A DNA stretch of 64,000 nucleotides from Telmatospirillum sp. (GTDB lineage: Bacteria > Pseudomonadota > Alphaproteobacteria > CACIAM-22H2): positions 132,227 to 196,226 of the forward strand of contig JADCGL010000020.1 in NCBI GenBank assembly GCA_020248985.1. Reading direction: 5' to 3'. Each line of letters begins with the position of its first letter. The first letter of the stretch is position 1. The notes under the pieces were generated by a model. The model saw only the letters and a program-made list of their open reading frames with translations. It searched no databases and had not been told where the DNA came from. The position numbers were made by a program, and so were the translations under genes. Positions 5,273-60,345 of the stretch are shown here, piece after piece.

Positions 5273-7090
5273 TCAGTCGCCAAGGGCTTCGCCTTCGCGC
5301 CGCGGATCGGCACCGCCGATCAGCTGCGTGCGGCCCTGGCGACGCACGATCTGGATGCCGTGCAGGCCGCTGCCGTGCGCAACGAACGTCACTTCGTGGC
5401 CCATGTTGCGCAACTCGCCCGCGAGCCCCGCGATCACCGTATCGCGCTCGAGCTCGGTCGGGCCGTTGAGGCTGAGCGCGTGCGGCAAGGCGACCGCGCG
5501 CTGCATGTCGAGCCCCCAATCGAGGGTCGCGACCAGCGTGCGCGCGACGTACGGGATGATGCGCGCCCCGCCCGGCGAGCCCAAGGTCATCACAAGCCGG
5601 TTTTCGCGGTCGAGCACGATCGTGGGCGACATCGAACTGCGCGGCCGCTTGCCGGGCTCCACGCGGTTGATGTTCGGCACGTCGCCGTCGCGCGGGCGCA
5701 GCGCAAAATCGGTCATCTGGTTGTTGAGCAGGAAACCCCGCACCATCACGCGGCTGCCGAACGCCTGTTCGATCGACGAGGTCATGGCGACCGCGTTGCC
5801 GGCGCCGTCGACGATCGAGAAATGCGAGGTGGCGGGCAGTTCGCTCAGCGTGTCGGGCGCGCGCAGGGCGGCACGCTGCAGGCGGCCCGCCTCGGCGCGG
5901 CCCATGCTGCGCTCGGGCAGAATCTGGCGCGCGCGCGCGGCGAGGTAGCGCCGGTCGAGCAGCTTTTCGAGCGGCACCTGCTCGAAATCCATGTCGGCCA
6001 GATAGCGCGCGCGGTCGGCGAAGGCGAGGCGCTCGGCCTCGGTCAGCGCATGCACGGCGGCCAGCGAATTGGGCGCCATCGCGCGCATGTCGAATTTTTC
6101 GAGCATGGCGAGGATCTGCGCGATCGCGACCCCGCCCGACGAGGGCGGACCCATGCCGCAGACCTTGTACTGGCGATAGCCGCCGCACACGGGCTCGCGC
6201 TTGAGGGCTTTGTAGCTCTTGAGATCTTCCACGCTCAGCGTGCCGGGTGTGCCGGCTTCGCGCACGGCCTTGGCCATCGCGCGCGCCAGGCCCCCGTTGT
6301 AGAAGGCATTGGCGCCGCCATTGGCGATCACGCGCAGCGTTTCGGCGAGTTCGGGATTGGCGAGCCGTTCGCCGACCGCTTTGGGATTGCCGTCGGCGTC
6401 GAAGAAATAGTTGCGCGTCGCCGGGAATTCCTTGAGCTGCGGCGTTTCGGCGATGAGCTGGTTGAGGCGCGGCGAGATCGGGAAACCTTCGGCCGCCATG
6501 CGCATGGCCGGCTCGAACAGCCGCAGCCACGGCAAGCGGCCATGCTGCTCGTGGGCAAGGGCCAGCATGCGCACCACGCCGGGCACGCCCACCGAATGCC
6601 CGCCCATCGCCGCTTGCGCAAACGGCAGCGGCTTGCCGTCGGCGTCGAGGAACATGTCGGGCGTTGCACCCGCAGGCGCCGTTTCGCGCCCGTCGTAGGT
6701 TTCGACTTTTCGCGTCTCGGCCGTGTAGTGGACGAGGAAGGCCCCGCCGCCAATGCCCGAGCTCTGCGGCTCGACGAGGGTCAGCACCATCTGCACGGCG
6801 ATCGCGGCATCGATGGCGCTGCCGCCCTGGCGCAGAATCTGGCGGCCGATTTCGGCGGCAAGCGGGTTTGCCGCCACGACCATATGGCGGTCCGCGGCGA
6901 CGGCGGCCCGGGTGGGGCCTGCGGGCGATGCGGATTCCGGTTGCGGGCGTGCGGTCGATGCGGGGGCGGATGGGGCGGGGGCATTCTGCGCCGATGCCCC
7001 GCCCGCAAATGCGAACCACAGCGACAGGAGCCCCGCGCCCAAAATGGGACGCCAGCCGGTCCAGCGCGCTGTGTCGTTCGCCGTCGTCAT
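5273..7090 (-). CDS. ggt: gamma-glutamyltransferase, periplasmic (signal peptide)
   Basis: The internal ATG at 7090 (MTTANDTARWTGWRPILGAGLLSLWFAFAGGASAQ) is the start. The ORF track extends it 302 aa upstream as a GC artefact. GGT motifs present are the T-nucleophile region TSHFSIVDGAGNAVAMTSSIEQAFGS and GSPGGARII. Confidence 0.88.
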   Translation of the reverse strand: MTTANDTARWTGWRPILGAGLLSLWFAFAGGASAQNAPAPSAPASTARPQPESASPAGPTRAAVAADRHMVVAANPLAAEIGRQILRQGGSAIDAAIAVQMVLTLVEPQSSGIGGGAFLVHYTAETRKVETYDGRETAPAGATPDMFLDADGKPLPFAQAAMGGHSVGVPGVVRMLALAHEQHGRLPWLRLFEPAMRMAAEGFPISPRLNQLIAETPQLKEFPATRNYFFDADGNPKAVGERLANPELAETLRVIANGGANAFYNGGLARAMAKAVREAGTPGTLSVEDLKSYKALKREPVCGGYRQYKVCGMGPPSSGGVAIAQILAMLEKFDMRAMAPNSLAAVHALTEAERLAFADRARYLADMDFEQVPLEKLLDRRYLAARARQILPERSMGRAEAGRLQRAALRAPDTLSELPATSHFSIVDGAGNAVAMTSSIEQAFGSRVMVRGFLLNNQMTDFALRPRDGDVPNINRVEPGKRPRSSMSPTIVLDRENRLVMTLGSPGGARIIPYVARTLVATLDWGLDMQRAVALPHALSLNGPTELERDTVIAGLAGELRNMGHEVTFVAHGSGLHGIQIVRRQGRTQLIGGADPRREGEALGD

Positions 7091-7245
7091 CGCTCGGGGT
7101 CTCGACGCTTCCAAAAAAGCGTCCCAGGGCCTTTGCCCGCCGGTCCAAGCGGGCAGACGGTATTTAGTCGCGTTCCCGCGCCCGGAGCAAGAGCGTCGTG
7201 GCCCTAAAGACCCAACCCGCCCAATAAAACGCCAGCGCTCCCGCC

Positions 7246-7950
7246 CTATTGGCGGACTTGGGCGATCTGGTCGAAGCTGCGCCGCACATAGACGATCTGG
7301 GCGCCGCGCGCTTCGAAGCGCAGGCCGACCCAGCTGTCGTCGGCGGCGTAGCTCAGATCGGCTTTGAGATCGCCCGTGACGCGGTAGGTCGAAACGCGCT
7401 GCGGGATCCCGTCGGCGGTCATGCTCGTTTCGCCGAGATTTTCGTTGGCGACCGTCGCAAGCTTGCCGCTCTGGGTATCCAGAAGCGCGCTGCGGTTCAG
7501 CTTGTCGCGATTCCAGTAGCTGCTGGGGGCGGTGTCGGCAGGGGCCAAGTAGCTGCCGCCGCTGCCTGAGACGGCCAAGCCCGACTCCCCGGCCGTGGCC
7601 AGCACGCGGGTGCGCGTGCCGTTGTCGTCGGTCGAGGCTTCGAGCGAGACGAGGCGCTCGCCCGACCACACTTCGGTGGCGCGATGCGTGTAGCGATAGA
7701 CGGTGACGAAAGCGAGTTTCACGGCCATGTCGATGGCGACTTCGACTTCGCGGCGGTTGCCTGCCTCGCGGATCGTGACGCGGTGCGTGCCGATGCTCGT
7801 GCCGTCGCGCATGACGTCGAACGTCAAGGTCTGCGTCGTGGCCGGAGCTTCTTCGCGCGGGCCGAAATTGGCGAGGGCCGGCGTTGCGGTGCCGAGCCCC
7901 AGACCAAGCCCAAGGCTCAAAACGCTCGCAAGGAGGAAACGGCTGATCAT
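7246..7950 (-). CDS. hypothetical secreted protein (signal peptide MISRFLLASVLSLGLGLGLGTATPALA)
   Basis: 234-aa ORF with a clean signal peptide and high-GC third positions. No family is recognised. Confidence 0.6.
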   Translation of the reverse strand: MISRFLLASVLSLGLGLGLGTATPALANFGPREEAPATTQTLTFDVMRDGTSIGTHRVTIREAGNRREVEVAIDMAVKLAFVTVYRYTHRATEVWSGERLVSLEASTDDNGTRTRVLATAGESGLAVSGSGGSYLAPADTAPSSYWNRDKLNRSALLDTQSGKLATVANENLGETSMTADGIPQRVSTYRVTGDLKADLSYAADDSWVGLRFEARGAQIVYVRRSFDQIAQVRQ

Positions 7951-7990
7951 GATCGCACTTGCTCCGTGGCTGATCTGGATACCTCTTGTA

Positions 7991-8016
7991 CGTCAATTTG
8001 CGTCAATCGGTTCAAT
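7991..8016 (+). repeat. three direct repeats (CGTCAAT, CGTCAAT, TTCAAT) phased at 10 bp
   Basis: cgtcaatttgcgtcaatcggttcaatg lies in the divergent intergenic region between 7246..7950(-) and the Fnr-type regulator gene. The one-helical-turn spacing suggests a protein binding array. Confidence 0.35.
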
Positions 8017-13291: not shown

Positions 13292-13368
13292 GCGGCCGTA
13301 GCTCAACTGGATAGAGCATCAGACTACGAATCTGGAGGTTAGGGGTTCGAATCCCTTCGGCCGCGCCA
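13292..13368 (+). tRNA. tRNA-Arg (anticodon ACG)
   Basis: GCGGCCGTAGCTCAACTGGATAGAGCATCAGACTACGAATCTGGAGGTTAGGGGTTCGAATCCCTTCGGCCGCGCCA. The 7-bp acceptor stem pairs, the D arm is GCTC/GAGC, the anticodon loop is CTACGAA, the T-loop is TTCGAAT, and CCA is encoded. Confidence 0.9.
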
Positions 13369-17299: not shown

Positions 17300-18081
17300 C
17301 GCAGATCCTTGCGGAATTGCGCCATCAGCGCGTGGAAGCGCGGATCGAGCTTGGTTGCCTCGCCGCGCGGCCGCGCAAGATCGACCGTGTGGATGGCTTT
17401 CACAATGCCGGGCCGCGGCGACATCACCGCAACGCGATCGGACAGATACGCCGCTTCTTCGACCGAGTGGGTTACGAACACCACGGTCTTGCGCGTCTCT
17501 TCCCAGATGCGCAGCAATTCGTCGTTGAGGCGGTCGCGGGTGAGCAGATCGAGCGCCCCGAAGGGTTCGTCCATCAGCAAGATCGGCGGATCGTAGGACA
17601 GAGCCCGCGCGATCGAGGCGCGCTGGCGCATGCCGCCTGACAATTGATGCGGCAGCGCATCGGCGAAGCCGGCAAGCCCGACAAGATCGAGCAGATGGTG
17701 CGCGCGCGCATCCGCTTCGGCGCGGTCGGTGCCGGCGGTGTCGAGCGGAAAGCGGATGTTGGCGAGTGTGCTGAGCCAGGGCAGCAGCACAGGGTCCTGG
17801 AATACGAAACCGATGCGCCGGCGGGCGCTCTCGCGGAATTCTTCGGCAAGTGCGATGCGCCCGCTGCTCGGCGCATCGAGGCCTGCAATAAGGCGCAGCA
17901 AGGTCGATTTGCCGCAGCCCGAGGGGCCCACGATCGACAGAAATTCGCCGCGCGCGACCGTGAGGCTGACGGGTGCCAAAGCGTCGATCGTTTCGCCCGA
18001 CGGCCCGGCAAAGCGCTTGGCGACCTGATCGATCGAAATCATCGGCGCGCGGGCGGCCAGTTGCGTCTCCATGGCCGCCAT
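17296..18081 (-). CDS. ABC transporter ATP-binding protein (NitT/TauT family)
   Basis: Walker [10 protein letters not shown], signature [15 protein letters not shown], Walker [16 protein letters not shown] 18081 is chosen as start because of the conserved upstream 17-mer. Other in-frame candidates are 18108, 18072 and 18042. Confidence 0.85.
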
Positions 18082-18087
18082 CTTTGC

Positions 18088-18104
18088 TTTGTTCCAAAAC
18101 AATA
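18088..18104 (-). repeat. 17-nt motif TATTGTTTTGGAACAAA (mRNA sense), copy A, 6 nt upstream of the ATPase ATG
   Basis: Identical to copy B at about 39424-39440 (plus strand TTTGTTCCAAAACAATA). It contains the inverted half-sites TTGTT/AACAA with a 4-nt spacer. Confidence 0.6.
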
Positions 18105-18251
18105 ACAAGAAGCGGGCGCCCCAATCCCACCGTCGGCCTCGTCGCCGGGGCGATCCCTTGCCAGATTCCTAAAATTTGTGGTATTTAAAAAACATTGGGC
18201 GAGAAACGCCTGGAATTCATGTTTCGCAACGATATGCGGAGGCCTTCGAGA

Positions 18252-18458
18252 ATGTCGGGTCTTGGAGCAGTGGGCAACGGAGTCGGGGCCGGTTCGTCCG
18301 GTACGGCCAAATTCGATCTCGCCTATCAGGTCGGCGCGTTTGTCGCCGCCTTCAACAATCAGCAATGGACGCCGCAGAGCTTCTTCGACGGTCCGCGCGT
18401 CAATGCGCCCGACCTCGTCGTGTTCGGCCAGGGCAAGACCTACGACTTCTTCGCCTGA
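18252..18458 (+). CDS. orphan small protein (68 aa), Gly-rich N-terminus
   Basis: GGAGG lies 9 nt before ATG 18252 and is preceded by an AT-rich tract (cctaaaatttgtggtatttaaaaaacatt). Product MSGLGAVGNGVGAGSSGTAKFDLAYQVGAFVAAFNNQQWTPQSFFDGPRVNAPDLVVFGQGKTYDFFA. No family is recognised. Confidence 0.5.
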   Translation: MSGLGAVGNGVGAGSSGTAKFDLAYQVGAFVAAFNNQQWTPQSFFDGPRVNAPDLVVFGQGKTYDFFA

Positions 18459-36804: not shown

Positions 36805-38613
<1,809 letters not shown>

Positions 38614-38680: not shown

Positions 38681-39415
38681 CTACGCATCGCCGCCGAGCT
38701 CTTTGAGTGCCAGGTCGATGCGTTGGTGGCGGCTTTCGTTGGCGCGCGGGTTGGCCGCCCCCCAGCGCGTGGCGCGGCGGAAATCCCGGAAGCGCTCGAT
38801 GTCGAGCGGGTTGGCGGGAGCGACACTGCGCGTCTTGCCGTCGGCTCCGTCGAAGGCAACCGTACGACCGGCGAGGAAGGCTTCGAGCCGTTCGGTCGAA
38901 CCGGTGCCGAACTGGTGCAGATGGCAGCCAAGTTCGATCTGGCCGCGCAGGCTGCGCGCGAACTCGGCCGCCCCGGGGCTTGCCGTTGCGATCATGCGGC
39001 GCACGGCCAAGCCGATGCGCACGAGCTTCAATCGCTCGAAGCGCGCGAGGATCGCTGCCGCCCCCGGCCAGGCCAGCAGGCGCATGCCGATGCGCTCGGC
39101 CTGGGCGCGTTCGGTTTTGGCCATCTGTGCGGTCGGTTTGGCGAAGAGCCGCTCGAGATCGACGCGCGCGGCAAGTGCGTGGGGCTGCTTCGTGTCGAGA
39201 TCGAGCAGGCGCGCGCGGGCAAAAGCGGCCAGCCTTGCGCGCAATTCGGCCTGTTGGCTTAGATCCATTTGCAGGCGGCCGAGCGACAGGCCGCTTGCAC
39301 CATTGTCGAGCGCAACCGCCTGGCCTGCACGCGCGCCCTCGGCCGCCGCCAAGGTTGGCTCGAGCCAGCGCACAAACTGCGGATGCAGGCCAATCCGCAG
39401 GGCGGCGCCGTTCAT
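38681..39415 (-). CDS. hypothetical protein (243 aa from ATG 39415; an in-frame upstream ATG at 39559 with a perfect SD would add 48 aa)
   Basis: The body has normal high GC3. The 48-codon in-frame extension (MAISTNRVEANLL...DIVLEQKKNM) has A/T-rich third positions and contains the 17-mer motif. That favours 39415 as the start and makes the extension a leader. Confidence 0.55.
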   Translation of the reverse strand: MNGAALRIGLHPQFVRWLEPTLAAAEGARAGQAVALDNGASGLSLGRLQMDLSQQAELRARLAAFARARLLDLDTKQPHALAARVDLERLFAKPTAQMAKTERAQAERIGMRLLAWPGAAAILARFERLKLVRIGLAVRRMIATASPGAAEFARSLRGQIELGCHLHQFGTGSTERLEAFLAGRTVAFDGADGKTRSVAPANPLDIERFRDFRRATRWGAANPRANESRHQRIDLALKELGGDA

Positions 39416-39423
39416 ATTCTTTT

Positions 39424-39440
39424 TTTGTTCCAAAACAATA
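39424..39440 (-). repeat. 17-nt motif TATTGTTTTGGAACAAA (mRNA sense), copy B, 8 nt upstream of ATG 39415
   Basis: Identical to copy A at 18088-18104, in the same orientation relative to the downstream start codon. Confidence 0.6.
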
Positions 39441-39559
39441 TCGGCATTGCCGGGATTGAGGCCGTAAGGGCCGATGACAGCTGGCAGGCGCTGCACGCGA
39501 TCTCCGCGATCCATTCTGGCGAGCAGATTTGCTTCGACTCTGTTCGTCGATATTGCCAT

Positions 39560-39640
39560 ATTGTTCTCCTAAGTGAATAAAAAGAATAATATCTAATATA
39601 GGATAATTAATCAAATTATTTTTGTGCGAGCTTGGCAAAG
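39560..39640. promoter_or_regulatory. AT-rich island in the divergent intergenic region (likely promoters)
   Basis: ttgttctcctaagtgaataaaaagaataatatctaatataggataattaatcaaattatttttgtg is about 80% A/T inside a roughly 67% GC genome. It contains the reverse complement of AGGAG-6nt-ATG for the minus gene and a TTATCC-like element. Confidence 0.45.
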
Positions 39641-39776
39641 AGTTTTGACCCGCCGCAGGGCGGCCTATATAAACCGTGCCATTCGCACAATTCGGTACGC
39701 CTCGGTTCGATTTGCCATGGGATTGCGTCCTGGCAGACAGGGTCGAATTTTGCGTGCCGTCGCCAGGAGACTGCAA

Positions 39777-40385
39777 ATGTCGTTGCCCTTGATGCCCAAA
39801 GCCACGGCCGTGTGGCTGGTCGAAAACACCGCGCTCAGCTTCGAGCAGATCGCCGAGTTCTGCGGCATGCATTCGCTCGAAGTGCAGGGCATTGCCGACG
39901 GCGAAGTGGCGATGGGGATCAACGGCCTCGATCCGATCGCCAACAACCAGCTCACGCGCGAAGAGATCACGCGCGCGGAAGCGGATCCGGCGGCCCGCCT
40001 CAATCTCCTGAAGGTCGATCTGCCGATGCCGGTGCAGCGCCCGAAGGGGGCCAAATACACGCCCGTATCCAAGCGCCAGGATCGCCCGGCCGCGATCGCG
40101 TGGCTGCTGCGCCACCATGCCGAGCTCGGCGATGCCGCGATCGGCAAGCTTGTGGGCACCACGAAGCCGACGATTCAGAAAATCCGCGACCGCTCGCATT
40201 TCGACATGGCCAACATCAAGCCGACCAATCCGGTCGTGCTCGGCCTGTGCAGCCAGGACGCGCTCGACGAAGCGATCGGCCGCGCCGCCCGTTCGGCCGA
40301 GCGTGCGCGCAAAGAGCAGGAACGCGCCGCCAAGCGTGCCGCCAAAGCCGCAACCGACGCCGCCGCCGCGAAGGCCGAAGCCTAA
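39777..40385 (+). CDS. DUF1013 domain protein (conserved alphaproteobacterial; some databases label this family TrcR-like)
   Basis: AGGAGA lies 7 nt before ATG 39777. MSLPLMPKATAVWLVENTALSFEQIAEFCGMHSLEVQGIADGEVAMGINGLDPIANNQLTREEI, with a Lys/Ala-rich C-terminal tail. The tracked ORF from 39624 is an upstream artefact. Confidence 0.7.
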   Translation: MSLPLMPKATAVWLVENTALSFEQIAEFCGMHSLEVQGIADGEVAMGINGLDPIANNQLTREEITRAEADPAARLNLLKVDLPMPVQRPKGAKYTPVSKRQDRPAAIAWLLRHHAELGDAAIGKLVGTTKPTIQKIRDRSHFDMANIKPTNPVVLGLCSQDALDEAIGRAARSAERARKEQERAAKRAAKAATDAAAAKAEA

Positions 40386-60022: not shown

Positions 60023-60139
60023 GATTTATCCCCAGCTTTCGGACCCGCCAATTGCGGGTTTGTGCGATCCGCCTTGACCCGGCGGATACGCAAGCTATGG
60101 TGTTTCCCGCGTTGCGCGGACTGCCATATCCGCGAAACG

Positions 60140-60345
60140 CCTCCCACGCGGGAGAGAGCCCCGACTGGCCATCGTCGGGGACGCCGAAGGAGCAACCGCC
60201 CCGGAAACTCTCAGGCAAACGGACCGCGTGACGAGACGTAACTCTGGAAAGCGAGCGGCACCGTTGCGTGTCGCTCCACCGAAGAGGTAAGTCCGCCGGA
60301 TATCGCGGACGATTCTTTCAGGTTCAAGGACAGAGGGGGCATGTG
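60140..60345 (+). promoter_or_regulatory. glycine riboswitch, tandem aptamers, upstream of gcvT
   Basis: Aptamer 1: GGGAGAG...CGCCGAAGGAGCAA...CTCAGGCAAACGGAC. Aptamer 2: CTCTGGAAAG...CACCGAAGAGGTAAG...TCAGGTTCAAGGACAG. Both match the GGAGAG / CCGAAGGRGCAA / CTCAGGCAAAAGGAC cores. Confidence 0.85.

What the first reader, a model, noticed from the sequence alone, without database searches (positions are those of the whole stretch)
39416..39776. Strongly AT-rich divergent promoter island with an ambiguous start: a 48-codon in-frame low-GC3 leader carrying a perfect Shine-Dalgarno
Between the hypothetical gene (minus) and the DUF1013 gene (plus) lies an about 80-bp stretch that is roughly 80% A/T (gaataaaaagaataatatctaatataggataattaatcaaattattttt). 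This is exceptional for this genome. The minus gene has two candidate starts. ATG 39559 is preceded by AGGAG-aacaat, an ideal SD, but it opens a 48-codon stretch with A/T-rich third positions (ATA, AGA, GAA, AAT, AAA AAG AAT) that also contains the conserved 17-mer. ATG 39415 begins normal high-GC3 coding. Either the protein has an atypical N-terminal extension, or a structured leader or leader peptide regulates the gene. AT-rich islands of this kind are the preferred targets of MucR/H-NS-like silencers and of cell-cycle regulators in alphaproteobacteria. ccrM, with its GANTC-rich promoter, lies 1.6 kb away.
Basis: seen in the sequence. Interest (0 to 1): 0.5.

Follow-up and report, generated by a model that had tools for sequence, protein, structure and literature searches.

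The report
Conserved AT-rich promoter, genuine upstream start
The AT-rich patch is best read as the conserved promoter and short leader of an unannotated lysozyme-like gene, placed back-to-back with the promoter of the cell-cycle gene trcR; the gene most likely starts at the upstream ATG, so the odd low-GC stretch is a fast-evolving, probably disordered protein tail and not a regulatory leader.

Summary
Bases 39576-39625 are 88% A/T, the most extreme 50-mer in a 65.9% GC window (next best 66%). The first 48 codons of the minus-strand ORF have GC3 of 0.54, against 0.80 for the rest.

The island is not specific to this genome. In 23 related loci the same AT-rich block lies between trcR (formerly DUF1013) and this gene. 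It contains conserved promoter-like blocks (TTGAyT, 17 nt, TATTAT-like), a TCC-N6-GGAT inverted repeat in the spacer, an upstream A/T tract, an AGGAG Shine-Dalgarno and the start codon.

Comparison of 12 orthologue DNAs favours ATG 39559. The start codon and Shine-Dalgarno are conserved in position (ATG, GTG or TTG). The frame has no stop in any of the 12. The only indel is three codons long. ATG 39415 is not conserved and has no Shine-Dalgarno, so the public 244-aa annotation is probably truncated.

The extension evolves quickly (dN/dS about 0.57, core 0.23) and is modelled at low confidence. Only this clade has it. The core has a lysozyme/chitosanase-like fold.

I found no support for a leader peptide, a structured leader, a CtrA box or GANTC sites. 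MucR binding was not testable. The AT-rich 17-mer shared with 18088 is unexplained.

The parts
38681..39559 (-). Full-length CDS (292 aa) of an unannotated protein with a lysozyme/chitosanase-like fold. The proposed true start is ATG 39559.
39416..39559 (-). The 48-codon low-GC3 N-terminal extension. It has a conserved helix motif (codons 2-17), a variable linker and a conserved L-E-Q-N-x-N motif.
   Evidence: GC3 is 0.54 here and 0.42-0.73 in all 12 orthologues, against 0.80-0.86 in their cores. Frame 0 has no stop in any of the 12, while the other two frames hold 14 and 13 stops in total. The chance that six mutually divergent copies are all open is about 1e-6. Median dN/dS is 0.57, against 0.23 for the core. 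pLDDT is below 50 for residues 1-5 and 15-54. The extension is absent from all remote homologues.
39413..39415 (-). Internal ATG (codon 49), used as the start in the public annotation of the identical gene (244 aa). Probably not the main start.
   Evidence: P0007 is 100% identical, 244 aa long and begins MNGAAL. Among the 12 DNAs only the window has ATG at this codon; P0001 (98% identical) has Met at the same position in the protein alignment. Three other orthologues have ATG at codon 44 or 47. L003 and L035 have no ATG, GTG or TTG between codon 35 and the conserved LHP motif. The only purine-rich motif upstream is GGAA, separated from the ATG by 12 nt.
39566..39570 (-). Shine-Dalgarno AGGAG, 6 nt upstream of ATG 39559.
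   Evidence: GAGAAC is present in 10 of the 12 long-form loci (GAGAAT in L021, GTGAAC in L030). The start codon lies at the same aligned position in all 12: ATG in ten, TTG in L002 and GTG in L035.
39586..39614 (-). Promoter-like site for the lysozyme-like gene: -35 TTGATT (39614..39609), 17-nt spacer, -10 TATTAT (39591..39586).
   Evidence: This is the only sigma-70-like match in 39300-39900. The identical site is called in L019. TTGAyT and GGATAWTT blocks with the same spacing are conserved in most of the long-form and short-form loci. The strict scanner does not call the -10 variants of L003 and L005, so the exact -10 is inferred.
39591..39604 (.). Operator-like inverted repeat inside the promoter spacer. 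On the minus strand it reads ATCC-TATATT-AGAT, one mismatch from ATCC-N6-GGAT.
   Evidence: TCCT and GAT are invariant in the 12 long-form loci. L033 (ATCCTATATAGGAT) and L034 (ATCCTTATAAGGAT) carry perfect 14-bp palindromes. Most short-form loci keep TCC-N7-GGAT. The window has no other AT-rich TCC-N6-8-GGA site.
39615..39624 (-). A/T tract (CAAAAATAAT on the minus strand) directly upstream of the -35, resembling an UP element.
   Evidence: AAAAATAATTTGA is nearly invariant in the 12 long-form loci. An UP-element function is inferred, not tested.
39645..39673 (+). Promoter-like site for trcR: TTGACC (39645-39650), 17 nt, TATAAA (39668-39673).
   Evidence: TTTTGACCC followed by CTATATAA is present in 22 of the 24 upstream sequences compared. 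L030 has GATATAAA in place of the second block. L032's stored stretch begins downstream of the first block. Searches show the same conservation. The strict scanner does not call it because the last base of the -10 is A, so the assignment is inferred.
39674..39776 (+). trcR 5' leader of about 100 nt, ending in the Shine-Dalgarno AGGAG (39765-39769).
   Evidence: It is conserved within clades. Its fold is not exceptional (z=+0.23). RNAalifold finds only 4 pairs and no compensatory change. There is no Rfam match.
39777..40385 (+). trcR (PF06242, formerly DUF1013), the divergent neighbour.
   Evidence: Pfam E=2.5e-60. The divergent trcR/lysozyme-like gene pair is conserved in L001-L012 and L014. 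rnhB and ccrM were found downstream of the lysozyme-like gene in most of those loci.
39424..39440 (-). AT-rich 17-mer TATTGTTTTGGAACAAA inside the extension, encoding (D)IVLEQK. It is identical to 18088-18104. Its last 7 nt, GAACAAA (39430..39424), are invariant in all 12 orthologues.
   Evidence: The meaning of this element is unexplained.

Best explanation
The AT-rich island is the conserved core promoter, upstream A/T tract and short leader of a minus-strand gene. It lies back-to-back with the trcR promoter, with 30 bp between the two -35 blocks.

Proposed sequence of events (inferred). RNA polymerase with the housekeeping sigma factor starts a few bases downstream of TATTAT (39591..39586). 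This gives a leader of about 20 nt carrying AGGAG. Translation starts at ATG 39559.

The 48 low-GC3 codons are therefore translated. They form a clade-specific, weakly constrained and probably disordered N-terminal extension. It has a short conserved helix (MAxxTNxVEAxLxAxxD) and a conserved LEQNxN motif, and it sits in front of a lysozyme/chitosanase-like domain.

The TCC-N6-GGAT inverted repeat in the promoter spacer is a candidate operator for an unidentified regulator (inferred).

What is shown: the composition, the conservation of the blocks, the open frame and its codon statistics, the non-conservation of the internal ATG, and the fold of the model. What is inferred: promoter activity, the transcription start site, use of the start codon in vivo, and operator function.
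For: AT island:
- It is the compositional extreme of the window.
- It is present at the same place in all 23 trcR-adjacent loci examined. A/T over the last 70 nt before the start is 0.53-0.79, in contigs of 63-68% GC.
- A sigma-70-like site is called here and in L019.
- In the 12 long-form loci, AAAAATAATTTGA, TCCT...GAT, the Shine-Dalgarno and the start codon are invariant or nearly so. The sequence between them varies and has indels that are not multiples of three.

Start codon:
- The start is ATG, GTG or TTG at one aligned position in all 12.
- Frame 0 holds 0 stops, against 14 and 13 in the other two frames.
- The joint chance that six divergent copies are all open is about 1e-6.
- The only indel in the extension is three codons long.
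- Codons 2-17 differ least at the second codon position (0.34/0.25/0.36).
- ATG 39415 is not conserved. L003 and L035 have no possible start between codon 35 and the family-wide LHP motif.
- In short-form relatives the equivalent promoter-like blocks, a Shine-Dalgarno-like motif and an ATG lie directly before the core, at about the same distance from trcR. The extension therefore looks like an in-frame gain after the start codon.
- Remote homologues all begin within 3-8 residues of the domain.

Protein:
- The AF2 model is confident for the core and has pLDDT below 50 for residues 1-5 and 15-54.
- Distant homologues carry a C-terminal PF09374 peptidoglycan-binding domain.
Against: - The composition of the extension looks non-coding. 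GC3 of 0.54 is in the lowest 2% of 48-codon windows. In this window such values mostly mark non-coding DNA upstream of true starts.
- The public annotation of the identical gene chose the internal ATG.
- Constraint on the extension is weak. dN/dS is about 0.57, and codons 18-42 differ almost equally at all three codon positions.
- The -10 hexamer is not strictly conserved. The scanner misses the site in L003 and L005, and it does not call the trcR promoter at all.
- There are no transcription start, proteomic or ribosome-profiling data.
- The lysozyme-like assignment rests on one predicted model built from 24 sequences. There is no sequence-level hit in Pfam or the PDB.
- The candidate catalytic residue E74 is replaced by Gly in P0018.
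Confidence: 0.7

Rival explanations
1. The gene starts at ATG 39415, as in the public 244-aa annotation. In that case 39416-39559 is an untranslated leader of about 165 nt that happens to be open in frame.
For: The 48 codons have GC3 of 0.54, typical of non-coding 5' ends of over-extended ORFs in this window. P0007 is annotated from this ATG. Short-form relatives begin about 5 residues before the LHP motif. Codons 18-42 evolve almost neutrally.
Against: ATG 39415 is specific to this strain and its closest relative, and it has no Shine-Dalgarno at a workable distance. Frame 0 is open in 12 of 12 orthologues, the indel is three codons long, and the joint chance is about 1e-6. L003 and L035 have no alternative start before the conserved core. 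A perfect Shine-Dalgarno with a position-conserved ATG, GTG or TTG sits at 39559.
Confidence: 0.08
2. Both ATGs are used in this strain. This would give a long and a short isoform: the lysozyme-like domain with and without the disordered tail.
For: The window and its 98%-identical relative both have Met at codon 49. The A-rich, weakly structured sequence in front of it might allow some initiation.
Against: There is no Shine-Dalgarno. The feature is absent from 10 of the 12 orthologue DNAs. Nothing shows selection for it.
Confidence: 0.1
3. The island works mainly as a nucleation site for an AT-preferring silencer (MucR/Ros family) or for cell-cycle regulators (CtrA, GcrA/CcrM). This would couple the gene and trcR to the cell cycle.
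For: The AT content is extreme and rich in TA steps. Published work shows that MucR binds AT-rich DNA in alphaproteobacteria and acts as an H-NS-like silencer (PMC9410896, PMC10746212, PMC5881533). The neighbours trcR and ccrM are cell-cycle genes (PMC10754441 citing Delaby et al. 2021).
Against: The island has no GANTC site, and the window has no TTAA-N7-TTAA or TTAACCAT. What is conserved is a set of discrete blocks with fixed spacing, not just composition. The gene is not foreign DNA: core GC3 is 0.80 and the gene order is conserved. Silencer binding is compatible with the promoter reading and is not excluded.
Confidence: 0.2
4. The extension carries a nucleic-acid element in addition to its coding role. 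The invariant GAACAAA and the 17-mer shared with the leader of the ABC transporter operon would be a common target of a small RNA, an RNA-binding protein or a DNA-binding regulator (palindrome TTGTT-N4-AACAA).
For: The 17-mer occurs exactly twice, with 0.03 expected. It is the only AT-rich repeat among the 12 exact repeats of 17 nt or more in the window. Both copies lie on the minus strand, downstream of the two most AT-rich islands of the window, and 8-9 nt before an ATG. GAA-CAA are 2 of only 4 invariant A/T-ending codons among 106 invariant amino-acid columns.
Against: The full 17-mer and the palindrome are not conserved in orthologues. No locus has the exact 17-mer; L002, L019 and L031 each differ at one position, and only L002 keeps the TTGTT-N4-AACAA palindrome. 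27% of invariant residues also have invariant codons, so GAACAAA could reflect a conserved EQ peptide motif. The two homologous ABC loci examined have unrelated upstream DNA. There is no Rfam hit.
Confidence: 0.12
5. The 48 codons act as a regulatory leader peptide or a structured attenuator or riboswitch leader.
For: The codon composition is odd and there is an A-run.
Against: No stop codon separates the stretch from the core. There is no terminator-like hairpin on the coding strand. The fold z-score is -0.72. No Rfam match at E<=1. The A AAA AAG run is not conserved.
Confidence: 0.02

Closest known systems
Back-to-back divergent sigma-70-type promoters with an AT-rich spacer, leader and UP-like tract
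   Same: There are two promoter-like sites on opposite strands, 30 bp apart: TTGATT-17-TATTAT and TTGACC-17-TATAAA. An A/T tract lies upstream of the first -35. A Shine-Dalgarno and a start codon follow within about 25 nt. All of this is conserved in position across relatives.
   Different: The AT content is unusually extreme for a 66% GC genome (88% over 50 bp). The -10 hexamers deviate from the E. coli consensus in several relatives. No transcription start data exist.
Start codons called too far downstream, cutting off lineage-specific disordered N-terminal extensions
   Same: The composition-based gene call picked the internal ATG. Comparative data support the upstream start. The extension evolves fast, is modelled at low confidence and is restricted to one clade.
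   Different: The low GC3 persists in every orthologue (0.42-0.73). A 7-nt stretch is invariant at the nucleotide level. Neither is explained by disorder alone.
Lysozyme superfamily: GH46/GH80 chitosanases, T4-type and GH108-type muramidases, SpmX muramidase domain, Brucella SagA
   Different: There is no sequence-level similarity to any Pfam, NCBIfam, PHROGs or PDB entry. No hydrophobic N-terminal segment of the signal-peptide or membrane-anchor kind is apparent in the sequence. The family is rare, with 35 cluster representatives among 1.84 billion proteins. E74 is not universal.
MucR/Ros (H-NS-like) target regions in alphaproteobacteria
   Same: The DNA is AT-rich with many TA steps, sits in a GC-rich alphaproteobacterial genome and lies next to cell-cycle genes (PMC9410896, PMC10746212).
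   Different: The gene is native, not horizontally acquired. The region is only about 65 bp long. Its conservation is block-wise, like a promoter. Binding has not been tested.
Leader-peptide attenuators and riboswitch leaders
   Same: An upstream ATG with a strong Shine-Dalgarno opens a short stretch of unusual codon composition.
   Different: The stretch is in frame and continuous with the main ORF. There is no stop codon, no terminator or antiterminator, no significant structure and no Rfam family.

Membership tests
Sigma-70-type promoter (lysozyme-like gene) | -35 and -10 hexamers close to TTGACA and TATAAT, separated by 16-18 nt | tested here: met
   TTGATT-17-TATTAT (9 of 12 matches) at 39614..39586 is the only site in 600 bp; 0.5 are expected. 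The same site is called in L019.
Sigma-70-type promoter (lysozyme-like gene) | Conservation of the hexamers and their spacing in orthologous loci | tested here: inconclusive
   The -35 (TTGAyT) and a GGATAWTT block keep the same spacing in most of the 23 loci. The hexamer at the -10 position varies (TATTTT, TATTTA, TAATTA), and the scanner does not call L003 or L005.
Sigma-70-type promoter (lysozyme-like gene) | A mapped transcription start site about 7 nt downstream of the -10 | not testable with these tools
   No transcriptome data are available.
Genuine translation start at 39559 | A Shine-Dalgarno 5-9 nt upstream, and a start codon conserved in position across orthologues | tested here: met
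   AGGAG lies 6 nt upstream. GAGAAC is present in 10 of the 12 loci (GAGAAT in L021, GTGAAC in L030). The start is ATG in ten, GTG in one and TTG in one, at one aligned position.
Genuine translation start at 39559 | The downstream frame stays open, with indels only in multiples of three | tested here: met
   Frame 0 has 0 stops in 12 of 12 sequences, against 14 and 13 in the other frames. There is one 3-codon indel. The joint chance is about 1e-6.
Genuine translation start at 39559 | Purifying selection at the protein level (dN/dS well below 1) | tested here: inconclusive
   Median dN/dS is 0.57, against 0.23 for the core. There is a clear signal only in codons 2-17 and at E44-Q45. Codons 18-42 are close to neutral.
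Leader peptide / transcription attenuator | A short ORF ended by its own stop codon, followed by alternative hairpins and a terminator | tested here: not met
   The stretch is continuous with the 292-aa ORF. There is no terminator-like site on the minus strand of 39400-39580.
Riboswitch / structured cis-regulatory leader | A match to a curated RNA family, or folding that is significantly more stable than shuffled sequence, with covariation | tested here: not met
   No Rfam match at E<=1. Fold z-scores are -0.72 (lysozyme-like gene leader plus extension) and +0.23 (trcR leader). No compensatory pairs.
CtrA- or GcrA/CcrM-controlled promoter | A TTAA-N7-TTAA or TTAACCAT box, or GANTC sites in the promoter | tested here: not met
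   The window has no CtrA box. The only GANTC in 39300-39900 is at 39536, inside the coding sequence.
MucR / H-NS-like silencer target | AT-rich DNA with TA steps | tested here: met
   88% A/T over 50 bp. This is a permissive criterion only.
MucR / H-NS-like silencer target | Protein occupancy, and derepression in a mutant | not testable with these tools
   This needs ChIP-seq and genetics.
Lysozyme superfamily (GH46-like / muramidase-like) | The two-lobed alpha+beta lysozyme fold | tested here: met
Lysozyme superfamily (GH46-like / muramidase-like) | A catalytic Glu with an Asp or Thr partner, conserved | tested here: inconclusive
   E74 is at least 90% conserved and D99 is invariant in A1, but P0018 has Gly at position 74. 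No structural superposition of the active site was made.
Lysozyme superfamily (GH46-like / muramidase-like) | Sequence membership in a curated glycoside-hydrolase family | tested here: not met
   No hit in Pfam, NCBIfam, PHROGs or PDB sequences.

The most novel reading that the evidence does not exclude
The N-terminal extension is dual-purpose. Besides encoding a disordered tail, it carries a nucleotide-level regulatory element: the invariant GAACAAA inside the AT-rich 17-mer TATTGTTTTGGAACAAA. The same element occurs in the leader of an unrelated ABC-transporter/nucleoside-phosphorylase operon at 18088-18104. One trans-acting factor (a small RNA seed, an RNA-binding protein, or a regulator recognising TTGTT-N4-AACAA) would then co-regulate a rare lysozyme-like protein of the trcR-rnhB-ccrM cell-cycle cluster together with that transporter. 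The persistent low GC3 of the extension would be selected to keep this region of the mRNA accessible.
Probability: 0.1. Interest if true: 0.5.

Novelty: new member of a known kind. Interest (0 to 1): 0.25.

Why it matters
There are three practical results.

1. The public annotation of this gene (244 aa) probably lacks 48 N-terminal residues.
2. The 'hypothetical' gene wedged between trcR and rnhB-ccrM in this group of Rhodospirillales belongs to a rare, uncurated family with a lysozyme/chitosanase-like fold. Distant members of the family carry peptidoglycan-binding domains. This gives a testable idea for its role: cell-wall or polysaccharide hydrolysis, or a non-catalytic use of the fold as in SpmX.
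3. The AT island gives a well-defined, conserved divergent control region for a cell-cycle-linked gene pair: two promoters and a TCC-N6-GGAT repeat.

None of this changes how promoters or start codons are understood. The finding is mostly ordinary biology, now explained.

Tried and rejected
- Structured leader or riboswitch: no Rfam match at E<=1 for 39200-40000, and no family-threshold match in the whole window apart from one tRNA and one glycine riboswitch elsewhere. Fold z-scores are not significant. RNAalifold on 17 trcR leaders gave 4 pairs and no compensatory change.
- Leader peptide or attenuator: no stop codon and no terminator on the coding strand.
- Programmed frameshift at A AAA AAG (39425..39419): the slippery run is present only in this strain.
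- Origin of the extension by tandem duplication of the promoter and leader: local alignment of each extension against its own upstream DNA is not better than shuffled controls in 10 of 12 loci. The window's one hit is a GC-rich 12-mer.
- CtrA, GcrA or CcrM control: the motifs are absent.
- Sigma-54, EcfG and FNR/FixK readings of the 17-mer: I checked spacing and half-sites by eye against consensus sequences recalled from memory. None fits. This was not a formal test.
- Conservation of the 17-mer upstream of the ABC operon: the two homologous operons I fetched have unrelated upstream DNA, and a third had no DNA available, so the question stays open.
- Scan of viral contigs for the 17-mer: 35 scattered hits of the kind expected by chance in AT-rich phage DNA, so uninformative.
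- Search for the extension peptide on other proteins with a profile of 13 extensions: nothing at E<=0.01. The query is short, so the sensitivity is low.
- Foldseek against afdb50 was unavailable.
- The TrcR paper (Delaby et al. 2021, PMC7923619) is not held. Statements about TrcR come from papers that cite it.
Full report
**1. The observation**

The window is 65.9% GC. Bases 39576-39625 are 88% A/T. The best 80-mer (39543-39622) is 78% A/T. For 50-mers the window mean is 34% (sd 7%), and the next most AT-rich 50-mer reaches only 66%, at 18157-18206.

The island lies between a minus-strand ORF, 38681..39559 (292 aa), and a plus-strand gene, 39777..40385. The plus-strand gene matches PF06242, now named TrcR and formerly DUF1013, with E=2.5e-60.

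On the minus strand, AGGAG (39570..39566) is followed by AACAAT and ATG 39559. A second in-frame ATG lies at 39415. The 48 codons between them have GC3 of 0.54, against 0.80 for the rest of the gene. Among 48-codon windows of 37 long ORFs in the window, only 2.1% are this low. Most of those are non-coding 5' ends of over-extended ORFs.

So the description is correct and the composition really is atypical.

**2. The island is conserved and has internal structure**

The 292-aa protein has 28 homologues in the large protein collection. All are 'hypothetical' and none has a Pfam domain.

Loci from genome and metagenome collections show that the divergent pair of trcR and this gene is conserved in L001-L012 and L014. 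rnhB and ccrM were found downstream of the gene in most of those loci.

In every trcR-adjacent locus examined, the last 70 nt before the start codon are AT-rich (0.53-0.79), in contigs of 63-68% GC.

Alignment of the 12 closest loci shows these blocks, reading in the gene's direction:
- AAAAATAATTTGA, nearly invariant;
- TTGAyT;
- a 17-nt spacer containing TCCT-N5-(G)GAT;
- a TATTAT/TATTTT-like hexamer;
- a variable leader of about 20 nt;
- GGAGAAC;
- the start codon.

The consensus scanner calls TTGATT-17-TATTAT (39614..39586) as the only sigma-70-like site in 600 bp. It calls the identical site in L019. It does not call L003 or L005, where the -10 deviates.

On the other strand, TTTTGACCC followed by CTATATAA is present in 22 of the 24 upstream sequences compared. 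In the window this is TTGACC at 39645-39650, then 17 nt, then TATAAA at 39668-39673. L030 has GATATAAA in place of the second block, and L032's stored stretch begins downstream of the first. I read this as the trcR promoter, followed by a leader of about 100 nt.

The two -35 blocks are 30 bp apart. The island is therefore the AT-rich half of a compact, conserved divergent control region.

The spacer repeat is a perfect 14-bp palindrome in L033 (ATCCTATATAGGAT) and in L034 (ATCCTTATAAGGAT). The window has one mismatch (ATCCTATATTAGAT). I treat it as a candidate operator. Nothing similar occurs elsewhere in the window.

**3. Which start codon**

The public annotation of the identical protein (P0007, Telmatospirillum sp. 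MAG) begins at the internal ATG and is 244 aa long.

Comparative data point to the upstream ATG:
- Seventeen homologues of 53-98% identity carry the extension.
- In 12 orthologue DNAs the start codon sits at one aligned position, as ATG in ten, TTG in L002 and GTG in L035. GAGAAC lies in front of it in 10 of the 12.
- Frame 0 of the extension has no stop in any of the 12. The other two frames hold 14 and 13 stops.
- For six mutually divergent copies (below 65% nucleotide identity), the joint chance of an open frame is about 1e-6.
- The only indel is three codons long. The adjacent non-coding DNA has indels of other lengths.
- Among the 12 DNAs, ATG 39415 is found only in the window; P0001, the 98%-identical relative, has Met at the same position in the protein alignment. 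L003 and L035 have no ATG, GTG or TTG between codon 35 and the LHP motif that is conserved across the whole family.
- ATG 39415 has no Shine-Dalgarno at a usable distance.

In the more distant 'short-form' relatives (55-60% identity, 216-231 aa), equivalent promoter-like blocks, a Shine-Dalgarno-like motif and an ATG lie at about the same distance from trcR. There they are followed directly by the core.

A profile search of 1.84 billion cluster representatives found only 35 relatives. In all the remote ones the domain begins at residue 3-8. The extension is therefore an in-frame gain of one clade.

**4. Nature of the extension**

The extension evolves faster than the core. Median dN/dS is 0.57 against 0.23. 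Mean pairwise differences by codon position are 0.41/0.41/0.47, against 0.16/0.13/0.35 for the core.

Some constraint is visible in codons 2-17 (0.34/0.25/0.36) and at L-E-Q-N-x-N.

AlphaFold2 models the core at pLDDT of about 85. Residues 1-5 and 15-54 fall below 50, with short helices at 7-17 and 40-44.

Low GC3 is a property of the extension in every orthologue: 0.42-0.73, against 0.80-0.86 in the cores.

A search with a profile of the extension alone found nothing elsewhere. The query is short, so this is weak evidence.

The extension plus leader does not fold unusually well (z=-0.72) and matches no Rfam family. There is no stop codon and no attenuator. The leader-peptide and structured-leader readings are therefore rejected.

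**5. The protein**

Several distant homologues carry a C-terminal PF09374 peptidoglycan-binding domain.

E74 (at least 90% conserved) and D99 (invariant) are placed like a lysozyme-type acid/base pair. P0018, however, has Gly at position 74.

There is no sequence-level match in Pfam, NCBIfam, PHROGs or the PDB. No hydrophobic N-terminal segment of the signal-peptide kind is apparent in the sequence. I file the protein as a new, rare family with a lysozyme-superfamily fold. Its activity is unknown.

**6.

The island has no GANTC site. The only one nearby, at 39536, is inside the coding sequence. The whole window has no TTAA-N7-TTAA or TTAACCAT.

The remark about ccrM is correct. The region 37901-38100 holds 4 GANTC sites, the densest cluster in the window.

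MucR-family proteins do bind AT-rich DNA in alphaproteobacteria (PMC9410896, PMC10746212, PMC5881533). That cannot be tested here. It is compatible with the promoter reading but not needed for it.

TrcR itself is described as an RNA-polymerase-associated factor in Caulobacter (PMC10754441 and PMC12864828, both citing Delaby et al. 2021). The original paper is not held.

**7. The 17-mer remains unexplained**

TATTGTTTTGGAACAAA (minus strand) occurs at 39440..39424 and at 18104..18088. There are no degenerate copies, and 0.03 matches are expected by chance. Of the 12 distinct exact repeats of 17 nt or more in the window, it is the only AT-rich one, with 13 of 17 bases A/T against 7 or fewer in the others.

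The adjacent GC-rich 17-mer at 39438 is ordinary background.

The second copy lies in the leader of a NitT/TauT-type ABC operon (ATPase, permease, PNP_UDP_1), about 46 nt before the annotated start. It is downstream of the second most AT-rich island of the window.

In the lysozyme-like gene the 17-mer encodes (D)IVLEQK. Orthologues show it drifting as coding sequence: no locus has the exact 17-mer, L002, L019 and L031 each differ at one position, and only L002 keeps the TTGTT-N4-AACAA palindrome. GAACAAA, however, is invariant in all 12.

GAA and CAA are 2 of only 4 invariant A/T-ending codons among 106 invariant residues. On the other hand, 27% of invariant residues also have invariant codons.

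The two homologous ABC operons I could read have unrelated upstream DNA.

I can neither dismiss the repeat as chance nor give it a function.

**8. Verdict**

The finding is real and is now largely explained. It is a conserved, unusually AT-rich promoter and leader, back-to-back with the trcR promoter. It drives a gene whose true start is most likely ATG 39559. The low-GC3 stretch is a clade-specific, weakly constrained N-terminal extension on a rare lysozyme-like protein.

This is ordinary biology with three useful by-products: a start-codon correction, a fold assignment, and a defined control region with a candidate operator. One loose end remains, the AT-rich 17-mer with its invariant GAACAAA.

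Noticed in passing
window 18040-18260: This is the second most AT-rich island of the window (18157-18236, 61% A/T over 80 bp). It lies between a minus-strand ABC operon (ATPase, permease, PNP_UDP_1) and a small plus-strand ORF (about 68 aa from ATG 18253, Shine-Dalgarno GGAGG, no Pfam or PHROGs hit). It contains TTGCCA-18-TATTTA with a TCC...GG spacer that resembles the promoter of the lysozyme-like gene. The exact 17-mer copy is at 18088-18104.
   Followed up: partly
window 39425-39419 (minus strand): The codons CAA-AAA-AAG form the heptamer A AAA AAG, the classic dnaX-type -1 slippery sequence, in the correct frame. It is present only in this strain; orthologues have CAA-AAC-ACG and similar. 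It is probably accidental.
   Followed up: yes
L004-L008, L012, L014 (about 70 nt before the start of the short-form gene): Short-form relatives carry three AAGG + A/T-rich units about 21 nt apart, for example AGGATAATTAGC, AAGGTAATATTAC and AAAGGAAAATTT. The last unit is the Shine-Dalgarno. The pattern suggests repeated binding sites for a protein on the DNA or on the leader RNA. The long-form loci, including the window, lack the middle unit.
   Followed up: no
window 37901-38100: This is the densest GANTC cluster in the window: 4 sites in 200 bp, against a mean of 1.3 per kb. It lies just upstream of the ccrM-like gene and overlaps the 3' end of rnhB, as expected for a methylation-sensitive ccrM promoter.
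   Followed up: partly
window 39674-39776 (plus strand) and the equivalent stretch in L001-L035: The trcR leader of about 100 nt is strongly conserved within clades. It contains different hairpins in the two clades, for example GTCCCGTTAACGGGAC in short-form genomes. There is no Rfam match and no covariation support in 17 sequences.
   Followed up: partly
window 5273-7996 (minus strand): A long ORF has GC3 as low as 0.42 over about 240 codons at its 5' end. This is unlike every other long ORF in the window. It could be foreign DNA, a mis-called frame, or a repetitive or disordered region.
   Followed up: no
window 60139-60236 (+) and 13292-13365 (+): A glycine riboswitch aptamer (RF00504, 60.8 bits) and a tRNA. 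These are the only Rfam matches above threshold in the window.
   Followed up: no
L013, L018, L024: Paralogues of the lysozyme-like family that are not next to trcR have GC-rich upstream DNA and no AT island. L018 and L024 have long C-terminal extensions. In L013 the upstream sequence appears to encode a second member of the family, which would make two copies in tandem.
   Followed up: partly
window 39395-39406 and 39653-39664: The GC-rich 12-mer CCGCAGGGCGGC occurs both inside the lysozyme-like gene's coding sequence and in the spacer of the trcR promoter. In a genome of this GC content it is most likely chance.
   Followed up: partly
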